Assembly: GCA_050951765.1 (NCBI GenBank)
Contig: JBMNJR010000008.1
Coordinates: 54,795 to 118,794, forward strand
Reading direction: 5' to 3'
Source of the DNA: a bacterium
GTDB lineage: Bacteria > Bacillota > DTU030 > JBMNJR01
Length of the DNA: 64,000 nt
The translations under genes were made by a program, and so were the position numbers. The notes beneath the pieces were generated by a model. That model made no database searches. It saw nothing but the letters and a program-made list of their open reading frames with translations, and was not told the DNA's origin. Shown here piece after piece: positions 43,525-50,606 of the stretch. The first letter of the stretch is position 1; the number at the start of each line of letters is the position of its first letter.

Positions 43525-44934
43525 CTAGAGCCTGATATTACCGTCTTGAAGGCCACGTAAACAGGGAAACATCGGAACCACTTTGCCCCTCTTTAATATG
43601 GGTATATTGGCGAACTTTTCATTAGATACTTTTTCGAATGACCGGTTCATTTTCCGCATCATGCTCTGGTTAAATCTATATCTTAAACTTGTACCCTTAG
43701 ATTTGGTATCACGAAAATGTTTTAGTTCTATCTTCCCACCACTTGCCATAAACGCTCGTAGTTCCGCCATCTTTCGCAGCCCTTCTTGGCTCCAGCCCAT
43801 GGGGCGGCTGCTTATTCTGCTCGAGAGAATATGGCTCACATGACCTCTGTACAGCTGCTGCCGCATTCTTCATGGTTATATATTACTATTGCTTCCCAGT
43901 TGTTGGTTATATATCTATGGAATTTGCGTATTTTCTCCTTCTCAGAGACACTGCCAGCCTTTTGGTATAGGCCTTTGATGATTGCTCTAAAGGCCTCTTT
44001 ATCAGAGTTTGAAAGTGCTGTGTAAATAGCAGTTCTTGCTTCCGGGTGTTGGCTCGTAGCAGTCATGATTGCTTTATTCAGGTGGTAACGATCTAATACT
44101 AACTTAGTGTTGGGAAGCCATTTTAGGCCTTCTTTTATCCAGGCCGCGCCATCACCATGTAGATAGATGCGTTCTATCTTCTCGGCTTCTGCCGCCTCTA
44201 ACCATAGGTCTTCATTGTCTTTACCACTACTGCTTATGTAATGGGTATTGATGCAGCTGCCGCGCTTTCTTTGCCTTTCTATCCCTTCGTGTATGCTTAT
44301 CAGCGGTACTATGCTGTTTTTACCGTCTTGCATGGATGCATGGTCTTCATCTGCATTTATATATAATACCGATGCCTGGCGTTTTTCGGTGGGCAGATCT
44401 ATCTTTAATTTTTTTACCTTGCGTAGCTTATTCATCACTGTTTGCCTACTTACTTCGCCCTTTGTAACGTATTTACTGCTTTTACCGTACGAGTTTTCAC
44501 TAGCACATTCTATGAGCCTTTGTGTAACAGCGGTGGATACTCGTTCGTATTTCTCTATCCCTACTGCTTTATCCAATAAATAGACATGCTCATCGTTCCT
44601 TTGATCATGAAAATAGGGTCCTGCTGAATACTATCTGTCCAAACTGTGTATAAAGCTCTCGCTTATCTTTCCTACGCTCAATTACAATTCCTTCTTGTCT
44701 TCTACTTGCTTTATCATCAACTATGGATTTGTCCAGCTCCTCAAGGTACGCTTCTACAATCTCTACTATGAAATTATCGGCCTTTTCTTTAAGATTTACT
44801 TCCATTTCTGCTATCGTTTTAGGTCCATCACCTTCAATGAAAAATTCTGCTACCCCCTTTATGAAATTTTCACAGATTTGTAGTAGAATAGTATCAAACA
44901 AGAGATCTCCTCCTTTGGTAATTGTTGTGGGCAA
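43525..44934 (-). pseudogene. ISLre2-type (UPF0236) transposase, fragmented into three frames
   Basis: Three collinear ORFs (44605..44934, 43836..44576, 43525..43866) that appear to be consecutive parts of one transposase. Confidence 0.55.
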
Positions 44935-45091: not shown

Positions 45092-45166
45092 GGGCCTGTA
45101 GCTCAGTGGGAGAGCGCCTGACTCGCATTCAGGAGGTCGAGGGTTCGACTCCCTTCAGGTCCACCA
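45092..45166 (+). tRNA. tRNA-Ala (anticodon CGC)
   Basis: Cloverleaf with G3:U70 alanine identity pair, anticodon loop CTCGCAT, T-loop TTCGACT, encoded CCA. Confidence 0.85.
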
Positions 45167-45518
45167 TAAAAATACAGTAAAACCCGGGGGTTACAGCCCC
45201 TGGTCATTTTTGTTTCCCGGCCAGCAGCCTAAAAAGGGAACAGACGCTGCCGCAGCTCCTCCTGTGGAAATACTGGGTAGAAAGTGCACCTGCTTTTAGT
45301 TCCCTTGCAGATAAATCGTCCCCTTTTTCTTCCTAATCTCACGAAGAGGAAACCGATAGCATCCTTTTTGGATGGGTAATCGTGGCTGACCCTAACAGTG
45401 CAGAAAATGCCTATGAAACAATGAAAAATGGCGGCCTCCATAACGCCATAGCATGGAGGAACCGCCATTCTTTGTGGCTATTGTAACCGGCAACTCTCAT
45501 TCCCGGGATTGATGAGAC

Positions 45519-46150
45519 CCATTCTACTCCTTGGGGAATTCTGCTGTTACGATTTCCTGAATCCGTGACACTAATTCTTGCACAATAGCTGCCCCTTTGT
45601 CGGCACTAGCCCCTTCGGCACTGTAGAGGATACCGCTTTCGGGTACTAACCCGGCGGGTTCCGGAAAAACCAAAGGCCTGGGTTGATGTTTTTTGCCCCT
45701 TTTGGGGCTGGAATCCGTTCCGGGTGCACCAAATCAGGGCGGAAATACATAATTAGGGACGTTTCTGCAAACTGGCGTGCTCAACTTCCCAGCCGGGAAA
45801 ACCTTCCGGGAAAAGACTATTTAAAGTGTTTTCGGTTACTAAATCCCACCAGTTAACAATAACTACCTTGACGCCGGGGTGAGCTGTAGTAACTAAATGG
45901 GCAGCCTCACCCATAAACGATGTATTTTCAAAATGCCCGTTCATAAGCAGGTTGCCGGCTGGGAGCGATAACCATAATGAATTGGCGGGGCAACCAGTAC
46001 CGGTTCCCTTTCGCCTAATGCCAAAGCTAGATGATAAGGAATTAAAAGGTCTACACTCAACGGCAGATGGGGACCATGTTGTTCCACCGAGCCTACACAC
46101 AGGGCAATTGTAGAACCGGACATCTTCCGGGCAAACTCTTGCCAATTCAT
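45519..46150 (-). pseudogene. Creatininase family gene, decayed paralog of 6692..7498
   Basis: VGSVEQHGPHLP, NGH and C-terminal ADKGAAIVQELV segments lie in three different frames, with internal material missing. Confidence 0.5.
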
Positions 46151-46155
46151 ATCGG

Positions 46156-46269
46156 TTAAGGCAATTGAAGCAAAGTTGGTTTTCCGTTGAGCGAAACATG
46201 ATCAACTGCTCGTATTTCACCAAAATTTTTTACCACATCAACTATTTGTACATCATACTGTTCAACCAT
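46156..46269 (-). pseudogene. ABC transporter ATP-binding protein, N-terminal remnant
   Basis: RBS GAGGTGG plus ATG; MVEQYDVQIVDVVKNFGEIRAVDHVSL matches an ABC ATPase N-terminus, then stops before the Walker A motif. Confidence 0.4.
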
Positions 46270-46398
46270 TTTTATTCCCACCTCAAACAGTGAAGGGGCA
46301 ATTAGAAAAATTGCCCTTCACGTAAAAATTATAGAAAGATCAATACGGTAACACTAAAACATCTCGTATGGGACAAATAGTCGCATGACTATACAGAC

Positions 46399-47508
46399 TT
46401 ATTTACTCTTAAACTGCTCCCATATTGTTTGCCATTCTTTTTCATTGGCTGGAACTATCCTGGTAGCGATGCGGTCAAGCATATCATTTAACAGTTCTGG
46501 ATTGTCCATCCGCAGCAATGCAGCCTGTTCCGCACTGAGATAATCAGCTGCTTTCATATTGGGCACCGTTGAATGGAAAGCGTTTGCCCAAGCCAATTTT
46601 GCCTGTACTTCCGGACTAATAAGATACTGCACAAAGGCTTTGGCAGCTTCCGGATTTTGGCTATGTTTCATAATTGATAGTGATTCTGTCCAAGACACGC
46701 CGCCTTCTTTAGGCATAACCACTTCAATGGGATACCCTTCTCCCTTTAACAGCACTTGTAGCCATTCACCGCCAAAACTTAACCATGCACTTTCATTCGC
46801 CAAAGCTTGAATTGTATCGGCGTTGGTAGCGGCAATCACGCCTACCTGAGGACGTAAAGAATATAATGTTTCCTCCAGTTCATCCAAGTCAGGACCTTCA
46901 ATCTCATAAGGCTGCTCATGCCCCAGATAGGCTCCCAACATACCCATATTGGGCAGATACCAGTCAAAAAGAACAATTTTCCCTTTATATTTTGGATCCC
47001 ACATTACATCCATAGACATGGCTTCTTCTTCAGTTACATAGTTTGAATTATAGACAATACCATAGTAACCCCACCGGCTGACAATGGAATACATTTGATC
47101 ATTCACAAAAAGCTGTTCAAAATCCTGCCAGTGGTCATAAAAGTTTTTAATCTCCGGATAATCACCGGGATCAAGCGGTGCAATCATATCAGCAGCTACC
47201 AACTTCTCCACCCAAGGAGTATCCGGTGTCACAACGTCCCACTCCCCCGGTTGAGAATTGGTAAGAATAGAGAACATTTGATCTGAGCTGGAATAAACCC
47301 GCGAATTAACCTTAACTCCATACTTTTCTTCAAAGGGTTGAATAATTTGTTCTTCCTCATATCCGGGCATAACCAAGATATTTAACGTACCGCCTATATA
47401 ATTTTCATCTTGATCACCACTGGGTGCAGTAGTTTGTTGACCACAACCGGAAAGAATGAGAATGGCAAAAGTGAATACTAGCAACAATGCTATTGCCTGC
47501 CTTTTCAT
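46399..47508 (-). CDS. ABC transporter substrate-binding lipoprotein (polyamine PotD-like)
   Basis: Lipobox LSGC after signal peptide; 369 aa periplasmic-binding-protein-like sequence. Confidence 0.75.
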   Translation of the reverse strand: MKRQAIALLLVFTFAILILSGCGQQTTAPSGDQDENYIGGTLNILVMPGYEEEQIIQPFEEKYGVKVNSRVYSSSDQMFSILTNSQPGEWDVVTPDTPWVEKLVAADMIAPLDPGDYPEIKNFYDHWQDFEQLFVNDQMYSIVSRWGYYGIVYNSNYVTEEEAMSMDVMWDPKYKGKIVLFDWYLPNMGMLGAYLGHEQPYEIEGPDLDELEETLYSLRPQVGVIAATNADTIQALANESAWLSFGGEWLQVLLKGEGYPIEVVMPKEGGVSWTESLSIMKHSQNPEAAKAFVQYLISPEVQAKLAWANAFHSTVPNMKAADYLSAEQAALLRMDNPELLNDMLDRIATRIVPANEKEWQTIWEQFKSK

Positions 47509-47948
47509 GTGGGAAACCCCCCTCTTTTTATGCTTGATTTATAATATATATACTATATAATGTATATTTATCCGTGTCAAGTACAAGTTATTGCCCCTAA
47601 TATTTTAAAACTAAAATTAAATTTTAAACTTCCCGCTTGTGCCAAGAAAAACGCACTATTCTTCACCGGCTATAGCAATAACAAAGAAGTATTTTTATTA
47701 AACATGTTCCCTTCAATACCGGCAATTTGGCAGCTTTACACACAACCCTTTATCATCCCCTGCCGGTCGGACTTGCATGCGAACAATAATTTTCCCCTTG
47801 CATAACCTGTAGCAAGGGGTGATGATATGAACCGGCAAAGCAATATCAGTTTTGCGCTTGGTTTAAATGGATTTAAGAAAATAACCCCTGTACGGGGTTT
47901 TGATAAAAAAATCGGGATAATGCCCGGCAAAACAACTATGTCTGGTCT

Positions 47949-49340
47949 ATGGCAGAAATGGGTGATTATATCTATGTCGGTACGGCTAGGAATATCGTCC
48001 ACTCTTTGCTGCGATTTATCAGTGAAATGGTTGGCGAGGAGATCCCAGTTCCTCCGGAACTACAACCAATAAATGTTGATGACAGCGGTGAAATCTGGCG
48101 CTACCATAAAAGCGGCCGTTTCGGCTGGGAAAGGGTTTATAAGGCACCTCCGGAACCGATGAACATTGGGTTTCGGTTTATGAAACGTTATACATCACCT
48201 GCCGGAGAAACAGCTCTATATGCCGCCGCCCTTACGCCCTTAAACCCAGAATTGCTTATCCTTAAATCTGCCGATGGCGAGCATTGGTATCCCTTGGAGT
48301 CGGGGATTACCGGTTATTCAGCCAGGTATATGGCAGAACACAAAGGTAAGCTTTATATGGGAGCACTACCCTTCTTAGGCTTGGGAGAAACACTGTTATA
48401 TGTTAGCGAAGACCCCGAGGGGGAAGGATGGCAATTGATTGATGTAAACGGGGTGCCGGGGAAAAACCCGCGGGGCAGTATTGACCTTATACTTAGCTAC
48501 AATGACCGCCTTTATGTGGGAACTGTACAGTCCAACGGTTTTGAGATCTGGCGGACACTGGGTGAGCTGCCGGAAAAAGATAATTGGAAGCTGGTCGTTG
48601 ATCAGGGAGCAGGCGATGCCCGCAATGAGCACCCTTGGGCTGTTGATTTTTTTCAGGAGCATATCTACGTTGGCTCCGCCATTGAAGCTGCGGTATTCAG
48701 CGCTGTTCCGGAACAAAATATTGTCCCGCCCAAGGGTTTTGACGTGATTAGGATCGATAAAGAGGATAATTGGGAATTGGTGATTGGTGGAGATCCCGTT
48801 GTGCCAACTGAGCCCACCACTGGAACCAGGGGAAAACCGATCAGCGGCTATGATTCCGGCTTTGGCAATATATCCAATGCTTATTGCTGGCAGATACAAA
48901 CCTTCGGTAAGAAATTATATTTAGGAACCTTTAGTTGGTCAGTATTGCTTCCAGCCTTTATTCCCTTGTTACTGGATATTCTCAAAATTTTATTGGCGGG
49001 GAATACCGGAGACAAATTGGCTAATACGGGATTTAATATTGAGGAAATAGCCGAAATGGAGCTGTTCTTAAAAAGACCGCATATCGATCAATTCCTACAA
49101 TATATTGCCCGCTTAATAATGAAGCTAGGATACCGTGTTTTTGGTTTTGACCTGTGGAAAACCAGAGATGGTGTGCATTGGGAGGCAGTGACTTTAAATG
49201 GTCTCGGAAACCCATACAATTATGGGGTGCGAATGTTATTTCAATCTGAAGATAATAAACTATATCTGGGCACAGCTAACCCTTTCCAGGGGTGTGAGGT
49301 CTGGGTAAAGCAAAGACCATTTCGAGATAGCGATGATTAG
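47949..49340 (+). CDS. Hypothetical protein with repeated LY(V/L)GT blades (beta-propeller-like)
   Basis: 463 aa; recurrent motifs YIYVGTARN, LYMGALPF, LYVGTVQSNGFEIW, IYVGSAIE, LYLGTFSW, LYLGTANPFQGCEVW; no family recognised. Confidence 0.55.
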   Translation: MAEMGDYIYVGTARNIVHSLLRFISEMVGEEIPVPPELQPINVDDSGEIWRYHKSGRFGWERVYKAPPEPMNIGFRFMKRYTSPAGETALYAAALTPLNPELLILKSADGEHWYPLESGITGYSARYMAEHKGKLYMGALPFLGLGETLLYVSEDPEGEGWQLIDVNGVPGKNPRGSIDLILSYNDRLYVGTVQSNGFEIWRTLGELPEKDNWKLVVDQGAGDARNEHPWAVDFFQEHIYVGSAIEAAVFSAVPEQNIVPPKGFDVIRIDKEDNWELVIGGDPVVPTEPTTGTRGKPISGYDSGFGNISNAYCWQIQTFGKKLYLGTFSWSVLLPAFIPLLLDILKILLAGNTGDKLANTGFNIEEIAEMELFLKRPHIDQFLQYIARLIMKLGYRVFGFDLWKTRDGVHWEAVTLNGLGNPYNYGVRMLFQSEDNKLYLGTANPFQGCEVWVKQRPFRDSDD

Positions 49341-49433
49341 CCTAAAGCCTCTATTTTGCGGAAAACACTGATGGGAAGGGAATTTTAACATGCAATTATA
49401 TTATTTTATGGAGATAAAACAATCCACCGGGTT

Positions 49434-49730
49434 TTGGATGAAGCTGAATTTTGGAAGCAGCAAGAGGCTGAGTACACAGTAGTAATACGCCAAATAGTTT
49501 CCGATCTGGAACCTGAGCTTGTGCGGCAGTTGAAACAATTTGAGTTGGCATTTCAACAAACAAAAGGTTTAGCAGTCAGATGTATGGAAGCTTTAAACAG
49601 AGCCGGCAGTTGTCTTCATCCTAATCTGCGACAACAAATATTCCTTAATCGACTGCGCTCTCAGGCAAAGTCAACAATTTATCATGTTATTAAACCGCAT
49701 ACTTGCAGAAAACGAGGCAGTGCGTCATAA
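49434..49730 (+). CDS. Hypothetical small protein
   Basis: 98 aa ORF with TTG start and no clear RBS. Confidence 0.25.
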   Translation: MDEAEFWKQQEAEYTVVIRQIVSDLEPELVRQLKQFELAFQQTKGLAVRCMEALNRAGSCLHPNLRQQIFLNRLRSQAKSTIYHVIKPHTCRKRGSAS

Positions 49731-49779
49731 TTTCATAGCACATGTGGTCATCAATCTATCCGCCGCGAATCGGAATGCT

Positions 49780-50313
49780 TTATTGGAATTGCGCAAACCG
49801 TTCTGAATACCTGATGAGCAAATGGTTTTTCCATAACAGAACTTTAATTAAAATAAGGAAGTCAATCCCTAAGGTGGCAGGTTCAGCAGCCAAGTTGAAA
49901 AAATCCGGATCTGAAATAGTTATACGGTAAATAACCGTAGTCCCTTTATCTTGCTCACGTTCTATTTTTAAAACATCCTCAATCCCTGTCGGTGGGTCTA
50001 TGGCAAGAACTTCAAATTGGTTGATGGGGATAAAGGTTAGCCCACCATCTGTGGAGATTTCTACCACCAAATCATCTTCCGTCAGTTCCGGGCAAATCTG
50101 TAATACCCAGTGACTTAAATCAGGGGTAACAGGTCCACCATCGTCTATCTGGATAATATATGTCCAATAGGATACTTCATTGGTGAAGTCATAAAACGGA
50201 TTAGCCTCTGTAGTATCCCCAGGTATTAACTGTTGTGCTGGAAAACAGATAGTATAATTAGGATCCTCCGGTGGTCTGGAACAACAAATATCTGTTTGCA
50301 AAATATTAGGCAT
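49780..50313 (-). CDS. Hypothetical protein with N-terminal CC..PP Cys motif
   Basis: About 177 aa from ATG 50313 (RBS GAGGTG); N-terminus MPNILQTDICCSRPPEDP; no family recognised. Confidence 0.45.
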   Translation of the reverse strand: MPNILQTDICCSRPPEDPNYTICFPAQQLIPGDTTEANPFYDFTNEVSYWTYIIQIDDGGPVTPDLSHWVLQICPELTEDDLVVEISTDGGLTFIPINQFEVLAIDPPTGIEDVLKIEREQDKGTTVIYRITISDPDFFNLAAEPATLGIDFLILIKVLLWKNHLLIRYSERFAQFQ

Positions 50314-50606
50314 CAAAAGCACCTCACACTCGCTTCATAACTGAAGCTTTGTATTATTGCTATATACTATGTCCTCCGGCCACGCTGCGTGCAAATGCTT
50401 TAATTATAACTAAGGTTATAATTTAAAAAGTCCTCAACCAAAGTCCTTGTATCGCTATGTACCGGGTCATTGGAAATATAGGTGACATTAAGATTTATGT
50501 TTAAGCATCTGCTTAAATTGAAGCCGGGATAATAATTTAATAATTCTCTCCTAACTTGAAATACTAATATTAACTTTATGCAATATTCAGGATGGAGGAT
50601 TTGCAG

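What the first reader, a model, noticed from the sequence alone, without database searches (positions are those of the whole stretch)
47827..49340. Unclassified 463-residue repeat protein, possibly with a longer N-terminus lost to an A7 frameshift
The protein has six or more recurrences of a hydrophobic-Y-(V/L)-G-T motif with flanking Trp and Gly, suggesting a beta-propeller or similar repeat fold that I cannot assign to a family. Its ATG at 47949 lacks a Shine-Dalgarno, whereas the ORF at 47827 has a good RBS (AAGGGGTGA) and changes frame into the 463-residue frame at an A7 run around 47904..47910. This could be a sequencing error, phase variation at a homopolymer, or an unrelated small ORF.
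Basis: partly seen in the sequence, partly recalled or inferred. Interest (0 to 1): 0.5.

Follow-up and report, generated by a model that had tools for sequence, protein, structure and literature searches.

The report
Frameshifted sporulation-type beta-propeller gene
A conserved gene for a seven-bladed, propeller-shaped protein of spore-forming bacteria has lost one A from a run of eight in this strain, which cuts off its conserved first 41 residues; the break is real but ordinary, and the sporulation-type promoter shared by the family is a modest new clue to its function.

Summary
ORF 47949..49340 (463 aa) carries seven hY(V/L/M)G(T/S/A)-type repeats (0.05 expected by chance). An ATG at 47827 with a good Shine-Dalgarno opens a second frame that meets it at an A7 run, which lies at 47905..47911, not 47904..47910.

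Adding one A gives a 504-aa protein. Two metagenome contigs encode this protein in one frame, with A8 in the DNA: L001 (four residues different) and L083 (two different). The contigs are 99.4-99.7% identical to the window.

All 57 aligned homologues and 79 of 80 genome loci keep the N-terminal segment in frame. It holds some of the family's most conserved residues. A7 recurs in three independently assembled sequencing runs, always linked to a Pro-to-Leu change at a conserved proline. I therefore read it as a real strain-level null allele rather than an assembly error.

The protein is an unannotated, cytoplasmically made, seven-bladed Kelch-like beta-propeller (AF2 pLDDT 90.9) with a hydrophobic helical insert. 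It occurs only in Bacillota and has no conserved neighbours. A sigmaK-type promoter precedes 54% of family genes against 3% of control genes, which suggests late mother-cell expression and a spore-surface role (inferred).

Verdict: an ordinary pseudogene-like allele of an uncharacterised family, of modest interest.

The parts
47783..47809 (+). SigmaK-type promoter: -35 AC at 47783-84, 16-nt spacer, -10 CATAACCTG at 47801-09.
   Evidence: The regex AC-N16/17-CATAnnnT[AG] matches here. The same element sits at the same relative position in 41/76 family loci against 20/679 control upstream regions. The consensus is taken from PMC3789822.
47814..47822 (+). Shine-Dalgarno AAGGGGTGA serving ATG 47827.
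   Evidence: Read directly from the sequence. The same layout is present in the close relatives L003-L006.
47827..47910 (+). True start codon and codons 1-28 of the propeller gene (MNRQSNISFALGLNGFKKITPVRGFDKK), in frame 1.
   Evidence: 100% identical to residues 1-28 of P0001 and P0123. F16, K18, I19, T20, P21, G24, F25 and D26 are conserved across 57 homologues.
47905..47911 (+). A7 tract, the site of the 1-nt deletion. The intact alleles have A8.
   Evidence: This is the only gap in the alignments to L001 (3,881 nt) and L083 (10,518 nt). A7 is also present in L002, L084 and L085.
47910..49340 (+). Remainder of the gene (residues 29-504 plus the stop), in frame 0. This frame is open from 47907.
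   Evidence: Translation; tblastn hit for residues 21-504 in the second frame.
47949..49340 (+). The 463-aa ORF as listed. It starts at the conserved internal Met42 and has no SD.
   Evidence: M42 is present in 52 of 57 homologues.
47827..48072 (+). 81-aa product actually encoded from the real start in the A7 allele: 28 native residues followed by 53 out-of-frame residues.
48936..49130 (+). Helical insert (residues 371-435) between strands 2 and 3 of blade 6. It includes the very hydrophobic helix 371-392.
   Evidence: DSSP on the AF2 model. Kyte-Doolittle mean of 2.3 over 19 residues.
48972..48974 (+). Codon 383, CTG (Leu) here and CCG (Pro) in the intact alleles. The substitution is linked to A7.
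   Evidence: SNP at 48973. Pro is present in every homologue sequence shown.

Best explanation
The locus is one gene, not two. It encodes a 504-residue, signal-peptide-less, seven-bladed Kelch-like beta-propeller. A roughly 65-residue helical insert, partly very hydrophobic, sits inside blade 6.

In this lineage, codons 27-29 became AAA AAA AAT, which forms an A8 tract. Loss of one A (A8 to A7, most simply by replication slippage) shifts the frame after codon 28.

The real start codon now yields an 81-residue nonsense peptide. The propeller frame can restart only at Met42, which has no ribosome-binding site and lies under the translated upstream ORF.

The missing 41 residues include the strand that, judging from the order of secondary-structure elements, closes blade 7 (the ring 'velcro'). 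They also include the first half of the innermost strand of blade 1, with invariant Q35, N36, Y38 and W40. The A7 allele is therefore a null or near-null allele carried by a real strain lineage.

What the intact protein does is inferred, not shown. The family occurs only in Bacillota, mostly endospore-forming lineages, and stands alone in variable neighbourhoods. It usually carries a sigmaK-type promoter just upstream. It is therefore most likely made late in the mother cell and deposited on or near the spore surface as a binding or enzymatic propeller.
For: **Shown**
Their DNA has A8, and that is the only indel across 3.9 kb and 10.5 kb of 99.4-99.7% identical sequence.
- All 57 aligned homologues start at or before residue 15. 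T20, G24, Q35, N36, Y38 and W40 are invariant. Residues 27-28, where the A-run lies, are variable.
- 79 of 80 genome loci encode the protein in one frame. Only the window, L002, L084 and L085 are split.
- Close relatives L003-L006 have no A-run at this position.
- A7 is present in Logan assemblies of three separate runs (SRR31061296, SRR31066035, SRR31066337). An NCBI MAG annotation of 460 aa implies the same truncation.
- All A7 alleles carry P383L at a conserved proline.
- Of 21 homopolymers of 6 or more bases in the 10.5 kb shared with L083, only this one differs in length. Two A8 runs elsewhere in the window sit inside intact ORFs.
- Within the gene, the strains differ by 0 synonymous and 5 nonsynonymous changes. 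The neighbouring genes show 26 synonymous and 12 nonsynonymous changes (Fisher p = 0.006).
- Promoter: AC-N16/17-CATAnnnT[AG] occurs in 41/76 family upstream regions against 20/679 controls (p = 1e-31). The -10 alone occurs in 62/76 against 124/679. The position relative to the gene is fixed.
- The sigmaK consensus (-35 AC, -10 CATATAAT-like) is taken from PMC3789822.
Against: - No reads could be inspected. The three Logan runs have neighbouring accession numbers and may come from one study, and the window's MAG may derive from them, so their independence is limited.
- A7 against A8 is exactly the kind of difference a homopolymer-prone platform produces.
- The window shows a patch of odd indel-rich sequence 2 kb upstream (45219-45949). 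This lowers trust in the assembly locally.
- The velcro role of residues 16-24 is inferred from strand order. I could not access the model's coordinates to check it.
- The sporulation role rests only on a promoter motif and on phyletic distribution. 46% of loci lack the full motif, including the four Bacilli loci I inspected by eye (L017, L022, L068, L079; the -10 is present in all four).
- No homologue has experimental data.
- The nonsynonymous excess rests on only 5 changes. Three of them are in an intact allele.
Confidence: 0.72

Rival explanations
1. Sequencing or assembly error. The organism really has A8 and an intact 504-aa gene, and the A7 comes from homopolymer under-calling.
For: The only difference from an intact gene is one base in the longest homopolymer of the region. 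The window contains a locally indel-rich patch at 45219-45949. The Logan runs have neighbouring accession numbers and may share platform and sample series.
Against: A7 was recovered by a different assembler from three runs. It is linked to a private substitution, P383L. Twenty other homopolymers of 6 or more bases in the shared 10.5 kb agree exactly with L083. Two A8 runs in the window lie in intact ORFs.
Confidence: 0.1
2. Reversible phase variation. The A7/A8 tract is a contingency switch that turns a spore-surface protein off and on within populations by slipped-strand mispairing.
For: Both tract lengths exist among strains that are at least 99.4% identical. The tract sits early in the gene at a variable dipeptide. 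The gene has a surface-protein-like profile: a sigmaK-type promoter and distant relatives that are PKD-linked surface proteins. There is an excess of nonsynonymous polymorphism.
Against: Each assembly shows one state only. A7 is linked to P383L, so it marks a clade rather than frequent switching. The tract is short for a contingency locus and is absent from the nearest relatives. No other gene in the window shows such a tract-dependent frame.
Confidence: 0.12
3. Programmed recoding. Full-length protein is still made from the A7 allele, either by -1 ribosomal slippage on A-AAA-AAA or by transcriptional slippage that adds an A. Flanking hairpins might assist.
For: A -1 slip of tRNA-Lys on AAA 47908-10 would give exactly the D-K-K-N-R-D sequence of the A8 product (read directly from the sequence). 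A 6-bp hairpin at 47883-47899 precedes the run, and a 4-bp GC hairpin follows it.
Against: The frameshift is not conserved: 79 of 80 loci are in one frame and the nearest relatives lack the run. The fold z-score is only -1.97, and the relatives show only imperfect versions of the upstream stem (read). The downstream stem starts only 2 nt after the run. From general knowledge, seven A give only low slippage.
Confidence: 0.04
4. The two ORFs are separate genes. The 463-aa ORF is the native protein and the 81-aa ORF is an unrelated small gene.
For: Gene callers annotate a 463-aa or 460-aa protein in the A7 assemblies.
Against: The first 28 codons of the small ORF are the conserved family N-terminus. 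No homologue starts at Met42. ATG 47949 has no SD.
Confidence: 0.02

Closest known systems
Kelch-repeat beta-propellers (Pfam Kelch_1-6; e.g. the Keap1 and KLHL Kelch domains and the designed SAKe propellers)
   Same: Four-stranded blades carry a hydrophobic-Y-x-G-G/T second strand and a conserved Trp. The family profile hits the designed Kelch protein SAKe6BC at E = 7.6e-8. Foldseek finds Keap1, KLHL12 and LZTR1.
   Different: No Pfam Kelch model reaches its threshold. The protein has seven blades rather than the usual six of Keap1-type domains, GT instead of GG, a 65-residue helical insert in blade 6, and a conserved N-terminal FKKITPVxGFD closing segment.
Two-component regulator propeller (Reg_prop, PF07494; e.g. 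the Bacteroides hybrid sensor kinase structure 3ott)
   Different: The matches are below the gathering score (15 bits against 20.4) and cover one blade only. There is no sensor kinase context, and the protein is cytoplasmically synthesised rather than periplasmic.
SigmaK-dependent spore coat and exosporium genes (cot and bclA genes of Bacillus and Clostridioides)
   Same: A promoter of the AC-N16/17-CATAnnnTA type lies directly upstream, with a short leader. There is no signal peptide. The family is restricted to Bacillota.
   Different: There is no sequence or fold relationship to any named coat protein. No homologue has been reported in a spore proteome that I could find. The family is patchy: 119 relatives were confirmed in a pattern-seeded scan of 185,579 species genomes.
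Homopolymer frameshift alleles and contingency loci (slipped-strand mispairing)
   Same: A 1-nt length change in a poly-A tract early in the ORF toggles the reading frame. Both lengths occur among near-identical strains.
   Different: Only A7 and A8 are seen, with one state per assembly. A7 is linked to another substitution. The tract is lineage-specific.
Multidomain surface proteins with the same propeller plus PKD, fn3, CARDB, TSP3 or transglutaminase-like domains
   Same: The family profile matches them at E = 1e-85 to 1e-109 over profile positions about 28-486.
   Different: They are 800-1,600 aa, and their matches begin at about profile position 28, after the FKKITPV segment. Signal peptides, helical insert and promoters were not examined in them.

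Membership tests
Seven-bladed beta-propeller fold | Seven four-stranded antiparallel blades arranged around a central axis. | tested here: met
Seven-bladed beta-propeller fold | Ring closure by a terminal strand completing the last blade (velcro). | tested here: inconclusive
   Blade 7 has only three C-terminal strands (467-473, 479-484, 492-495). The N-terminal strand 16-18/22-24 is confidently modelled.
Pfam Kelch families | A match to a Kelch model above the gathering score. | tested here: not met
   Only sub-threshold hits: Kelch_6 at 17 bits against 25.3, and PF24681 at 16 bits against 50.
Pfam Reg_prop (PF07494) | A match above the gathering score of 20.4 bits. | tested here: not met
   14-16.4 bits in the stand-alone family proteins. 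Only one distant multidomain relative, P0161, reaches 20.5 bits.
SigmaK regulon | Promoter with -35 AC, a 16-17 nt spacer and -10 CATAnnnTA. | tested here: met
   In the window, AC at 47783, a 16-nt spacer and CATAACCTG; the last base is G rather than A. In the family, 41/76 relaxed and 22/76 strict matches against 20/679 and 15/679 controls.
SigmaK regulon | Transcription dependent on sigK during late sporulation. | not testable with these tools
   No expression data are available.
Spore coat or exosporium protein | Physical presence in purified spores, or localisation around the forespore. | not testable with these tools
   The literature search found no propeller coat protein of this family.
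Pseudogene (frameshifted allele) | The reading frame is interrupted relative to intact orthologues, with loss of conserved residues. | tested here: met
Pseudogene (frameshifted allele) | The lesion is real in the DNA rather than in the assembly only. | tested here: inconclusive
   Three independent Logan assemblies and the linkage to P383L favour a real lesion. No reads could be inspected.
Phase-variable contingency locus | Tract length varies between closely related genomes. | tested here: met
   A7 in the window, L002, L084 and L085; A8 in L001 and L083.
Phase-variable contingency locus | Tract length is heterogeneous within a population, with repeated independent switching. | not testable with these tools
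   Reads are unavailable. Linkage of A7 to P383L argues for a single origin.
Programmed frameshift or transcriptional slippage gene | The frameshift site and two-frame organisation are conserved among orthologues. | tested here: not met
   79 of 80 loci are in one frame, and the relatives lack the A-run.

The most novel reading that the evidence does not exclude
The A7/A8 tract is a working on/off switch, by phase variation through slipped-strand mispairing, for a previously unrecognised sigmaK-controlled beta-propeller protein of the spore surface. It operates in an environmental, Pelotomaculum-like anaerobe, so that one population produces spores with and without this surface module.
Probability: 0.1. 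Interest if true: 0.6.

Novelty: new member of a known kind. Interest (0 to 1): 0.3.

Why it matters
**For annotation.** The 460-463-aa 'hypothetical protein' called in this lineage is the tail of a broken gene and should be flagged as a frameshifted pseudogene.

**For biology.**
- This is a family without Pfam or NCBIfam coverage: about 540 representative clusters at E <= 1e-30.
- Its stand-alone form was found only in Bacillota.
- It turns out to be a confident seven-bladed propeller with a conserved sigmaK-type promoter.
- That makes it a concrete, testable candidate for a new late-sporulation or spore-surface component.
- Its loss in one lineage, and an independent truncation in a related MAG (L019), suggests it is dispensable under some conditions.

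Tried and rejected
- **Family libraries.** Pfam, NCBIfam and PHROGs scans of the repaired protein and of longer homologues gave nothing above threshold. PF25852, listed as a precomputed hit for a few homologues, was not reproduced with the local Pfam copy.
- **Gene neighbourhood.** ORFs of 80 loci were clustered. The only recurrent neighbour cluster was generic ABC ATPases at varying positions, so there is no conserved operon.
- **Recoding signals.** The hairpins flanking the A-run are weak (z = -1.97), and the relatives show only imperfect versions of the upstream stem.
- **Counting A7 and A8 alleles in JGI metagenomes.** Two metagenome-contig scans found nothing, even for a 36-nt flank shared by both alleles, so that collection does not hold these contigs.
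- **Exact look-ups.** Look-up of the NCBI 460-aa protein found no contig. The 81-aa frameshift peptide is not in the protein collection.
- **Assembly-wide indel errors.** I considered this explanation and rejected it for the stretch examined. The 10.5 kb around the gene has a single indel against L083, and the A8 runs elsewhere in the window are in frame.

Full report
**1. What is in the sequence**

On the + strand, an ATG at 47827 is preceded by AAGGGGTGA (47814-47822). It opens an 81-codon ORF that ends at 48072. A 463-codon ORF in the frame one base behind starts at ATG 47949 and ends at 49340.

The two frames meet at GAT-AAAAAAA-TCGGG.

The frame of the long ORF is closed by TGA and TAA at 47901-47906. 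It has no start codon before 47949, and that ATG has no Shine-Dalgarno.

The repeat motif is real. [LIVMF]Y[VLMIA][GA][TSA] occurs seven times, against 0.05 expected, and none of 20,000 shuffles reached seven.

**2. The N-terminal extension is real**

Adding one A gives a 504-residue protein. A search with it found 375 relatives.

- The best hit, P0001, is 504 aa and 99% identical over 100% of the query. Its N-terminus is identical to the repaired one.
- Its contig, L001, is 99.38% identical to window 47357-51236. The single gap is an eighth A in the run.
- A second intact allele, P0123, lies on an 81.6-kb JGI contig, L083. That contig is 99.68% identical over 10.5 kb, and again the A-run is the only indel.
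- In an alignment of 57 homologues (42-82% identity), every sequence begins at or before residue 15.
- The segment on both sides of the run is among the best conserved parts of the protein. F16, K18, I19, T20, P21, G24, F25 and D26 lie upstream. N32, A33, Q35, N36, Y38, W40, S41 and M42 lie downstream.
- Residues 27-28, the Lys-Lys encoded by the run, are variable.
- Of 80 loci from species-representative genomes, 79 encode the protein in one frame. One, L019, lacks the first 208 residues.
- Only the window and its near-identical contigs are split into two frames.
- The nearest relatives are Pelotomaculum-type MAGs at 77-81% identity. They read GAT AAA GGG GAT or similar at this position and have no A-run.

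The 'small ORF' is therefore the head of the gene. The ATG at 47949 is the conserved internal Met42. The A8 tract is a lineage-specific accident at a tolerant dipeptide, and A7 is a derived 1-nt deletion.

**3. Real lesion or error?**

- The exact 463-aa product is on a Logan contig from run SRR31061296 (L002). That contig is 100% identical to window 46185-50393 and has A7.
- A second 463-aa variant, P0124, differs by one residue. It comes from two further runs (L084 and L085), both with A7.
- An NCBI MAG protein of 460 aa (MGI6575289.1) is the same truncated product, called from the next ATG.
- All A7 alleles carry Leu383. Both A8 alleles and every homologue sequence shown have Pro there.
- In the 10.5 kb shared with L083 there are 21 homopolymers of 6 or more bases, and only this one differs in length. 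Two A8 runs elsewhere in the window lie inside intact ORFs.
- L002 carries A7 but keeps an intact ABC transporter operon that the window has lost. The window and L002 are therefore different assemblies of related genomes.

I conclude that A7 is most probably real (about 0.85). I saw no reads, and the three runs have neighbouring accession numbers, which limits their independence.

**4. Consequence of the frameshift**

From the real start, the A7 allele encodes 28 native residues and then 53 out-of-frame residues.

Re-initiation at Met42 is unlikely, by inference. There is no SD, and the site lies 120 nt inside the translated upstream ORF.

The AF2 model built on the 57-sequence alignment is confident: pLDDT 90.9 and pTM 0.91. 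Residues 12-45 score 79-98.

Each blade follows the same order: a long inner strand, the hYxGT strand, an 'EIWR'-type strand, and a 'W..V' strand.

Blade 7 has only three strands from the C-terminus (467-473, 479-484, 492-495). The N-terminal strand around 16-24 is the natural fourth strand that closes the ring.

A product starting at Met42 would lack that strand. It would also lack helix 30-35 and the first six residues of blade 1's inner strand. I therefore treat A7 as a null or near-null allele.

A -1 slip on A-AAA-AAA, or an extra A added by RNA polymerase, would restore exactly the wild-type sequence. Some leakiness is therefore conceivable. The site is not conserved and the flanking hairpins are weak.

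**5. Signs of relaxed constraint**

Among the four allele types, the gene shows five nonsynonymous differences and no synonymous ones: V/F275, S/G340, K/E363, P/L383 and G/E402. The neighbouring genes on the same contigs show 26 synonymous and 12 nonsynonymous differences (Fisher p = 0.006).

The numbers are small, and three of the changes are in an intact allele. This is only suggestive of relaxed or diversifying selection in this species.

**6. What the protein is**

- No Pfam, NCBIfam or PHROG model reaches threshold. Reg_prop and Kelch give sub-threshold hits on single blades.
- The family profile hits designed Kelch propellers in the PDB at E = 7.6e-8.
- The fold is settled, but it transfers no function.
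- A helical insert (371-435) interrupts blade 6. Its first helix (371-392) has transmembrane-grade hydrophobicity, with a Kyte-Doolittle mean of 2.3.
- By inspection there is no signal peptide.
- A full HMM search finds 541 representative clusters at E <= 1e-30 and 2,429 at E <= 1e-10.
- The more distant relatives are 800-1,600-aa proteins. They combine this propeller with PKD, fn3, CARDB, TSP3, PQQ-propeller or transglutaminase-like domains, which is the look of surface proteins.

**7. Context and regulation**

Clustering the flanking ORFs of 80 loci showed no conserved neighbour. The only recurrent cluster was generic ABC ATPases.

The upstream DNA, however, is conserved in kind.

- AC-N16/17-CATAnnnT[AG] occurs in 41 of 76 family upstream regions. 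It occurs in 20 of 679 equally long upstream regions of other genes in the same loci (p = 1.3e-31).
- The strict form CATAnnnTA occurs in 22/76 against 15/679.
- The -10 alone occurs in 62/76 against 124/679.
- The element lies at a fixed distance from the gene.
- An alignment anchored on the -10 shows a g.AC(c/a) -35 element.
- In Clostridioides difficile, sigmaE and sigmaK promoters share this -10 element. They differ in the -35, which is ATA for sigmaE and AC for sigmaK (PMC3789822).
- The window has AC at 47783-84, a 16-nt spacer and CATAACCTG at 47801-09, directly before the SD.

The genome-scan loci and named protein hits are almost all Bacillota: Pelotomaculum, Desulfoscipio, Clostridium, Paenibacillus, Cytobacillus, Metabacillus, Sporomusa, Dehalobacter and others. 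Two record titles name other phyla (L017 'Pseudomonas sp. ISL-84', L069 'Apibacter sp.'); I take these to be mislabelled or contaminated, which I did not check. From general knowledge, most are endospore formers.

My best functional reading is late mother-cell expression and a role at the spore surface, either as a binding scaffold or as an enzyme. This is an inference at about 0.5. The conserved polar and Arg residues that follow each inner strand would form the ligand site.

**8. Comparison with known systems and novelty**

The protein works like a Kelch-type propeller, but it fails the membership tests for the Pfam Kelch and Reg_prop families. It resembles coat genes only in its promoter.

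The A-tract behaves like any homopolymer frameshift hotspot. It meets one criterion of a contingency locus, length variation among near-identical strains. It does not meet the criteria I could test for programmed recoding.

The lesion itself is an ordinary strain-level pseudogenisation. The family is an unannotated member of a very well-known fold class, and the sigmaK-type promoter is a new, testable lead.

**9. Verdict**

My confidence in the combined explanation is 0.72, and I rate the interest at 0.3. The most novel reading not excluded is a phase-variable spore-surface propeller, which I put at about 0.1 probability.

Noticed in passing
window 46184/46185 (compare L083 5635-8358 and L002 1-1236): A clean 2,724-bp deletion relative to L083 and L002. 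It removes most of an ABC ATPase (only about 28 codons remain, at 46185-46269) and two permease genes. The solute-binding protein gene at 46399-47508 is left orphaned. L002 carries the same A7 allele but keeps the operon.
   Followed up: partly
window 45219-45949 and the junction at 45949/45950: A creatininase-family gene remnant. It is about 94% identical to the intact L083 gene, with 18 gap openings, mostly G/C-rich insertions and A/T-to-G/C changes. There is also a 109-bp deletion. The flanking sequence is about 99-100% identical. This could be local assembly noise, recombination or decay; I could not tell which.
   Followed up: partly
window 43836-44934 (- strand): A UPF0236 (ISL3-like) transposase split into two ORFs of 109 aa and 246 aa. 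The region is 95% identical to an L083 copy, with three gap openings. It looks like a decayed insertion sequence next to tRNA-Ala(CGC) at 45092-45166.
   Followed up: partly
window 56701/56702 and 57107-57202 (compare L083 18877-19369 and 19776-20203): Two more length differences from L083. 493 bp are absent, and a 428-bp stretch is replaced by 96 bp. They shorten a 265-aa gene to about 162 aa and an IstB-like gene from 241 aa to about 174 aa. Several gene-truncating differences therefore cluster within about 15 kb of this lineage.
   Followed up: no
window 48647-48653: A T7 run inside the propeller gene. It is created by the Val275Phe substitution (GTT to TTT at 48648), which is present in the window and in P0001 but not in P0123 or P0124. 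This is either homoplasy or recombination among alleles.
   Followed up: no
L019 4238-5113 (MAG Bacillota bacterium AMR_MDS_2450): A 78%-identical homologue that retains only residues 209-500, although more than 4 kb of contig lies upstream. This is an independent truncation of the same gene in a related organism.
   Followed up: no
window 47560-47805 (+): An 81-aa ORF that JGI gene calls place between the binding-protein gene and the propeller gene. It has no family hit and overlaps the predicted promoter, so it is probably not a gene.
   Followed up: no
window 49434-49730 (+) and 49780-50322 (-): Downstream lie a 98-aa DUF2935 protein (E = 9e-7) and a 180-aa ORF with no family hit. Neither is a conserved neighbour of the propeller gene outside this species.
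   Followed up: partly
proteins P0139-P0169 (distant relatives): The same unannotated propeller domain occurs in 800-1,600-aa proteins together with PKD, fn3, CARDB, TSP3, PQQ-propeller and transglutaminase-like domains. This suggests a wider surface-protein superfamily that lacks a Pfam model.
   Followed up: partly
homologues P0045-P0047, P0049, P0054, P0056 (Negativicutes, e.g. Sporomusa termitida): These 542-549-aa versions are about 40-70 residues longer than the typical 470-505-aa members. In the one sequence I read, P0056, the extra length is an N-terminal extension that looks like a small beta-barrel. No Pfam hit was found for it.
   Followed up: no
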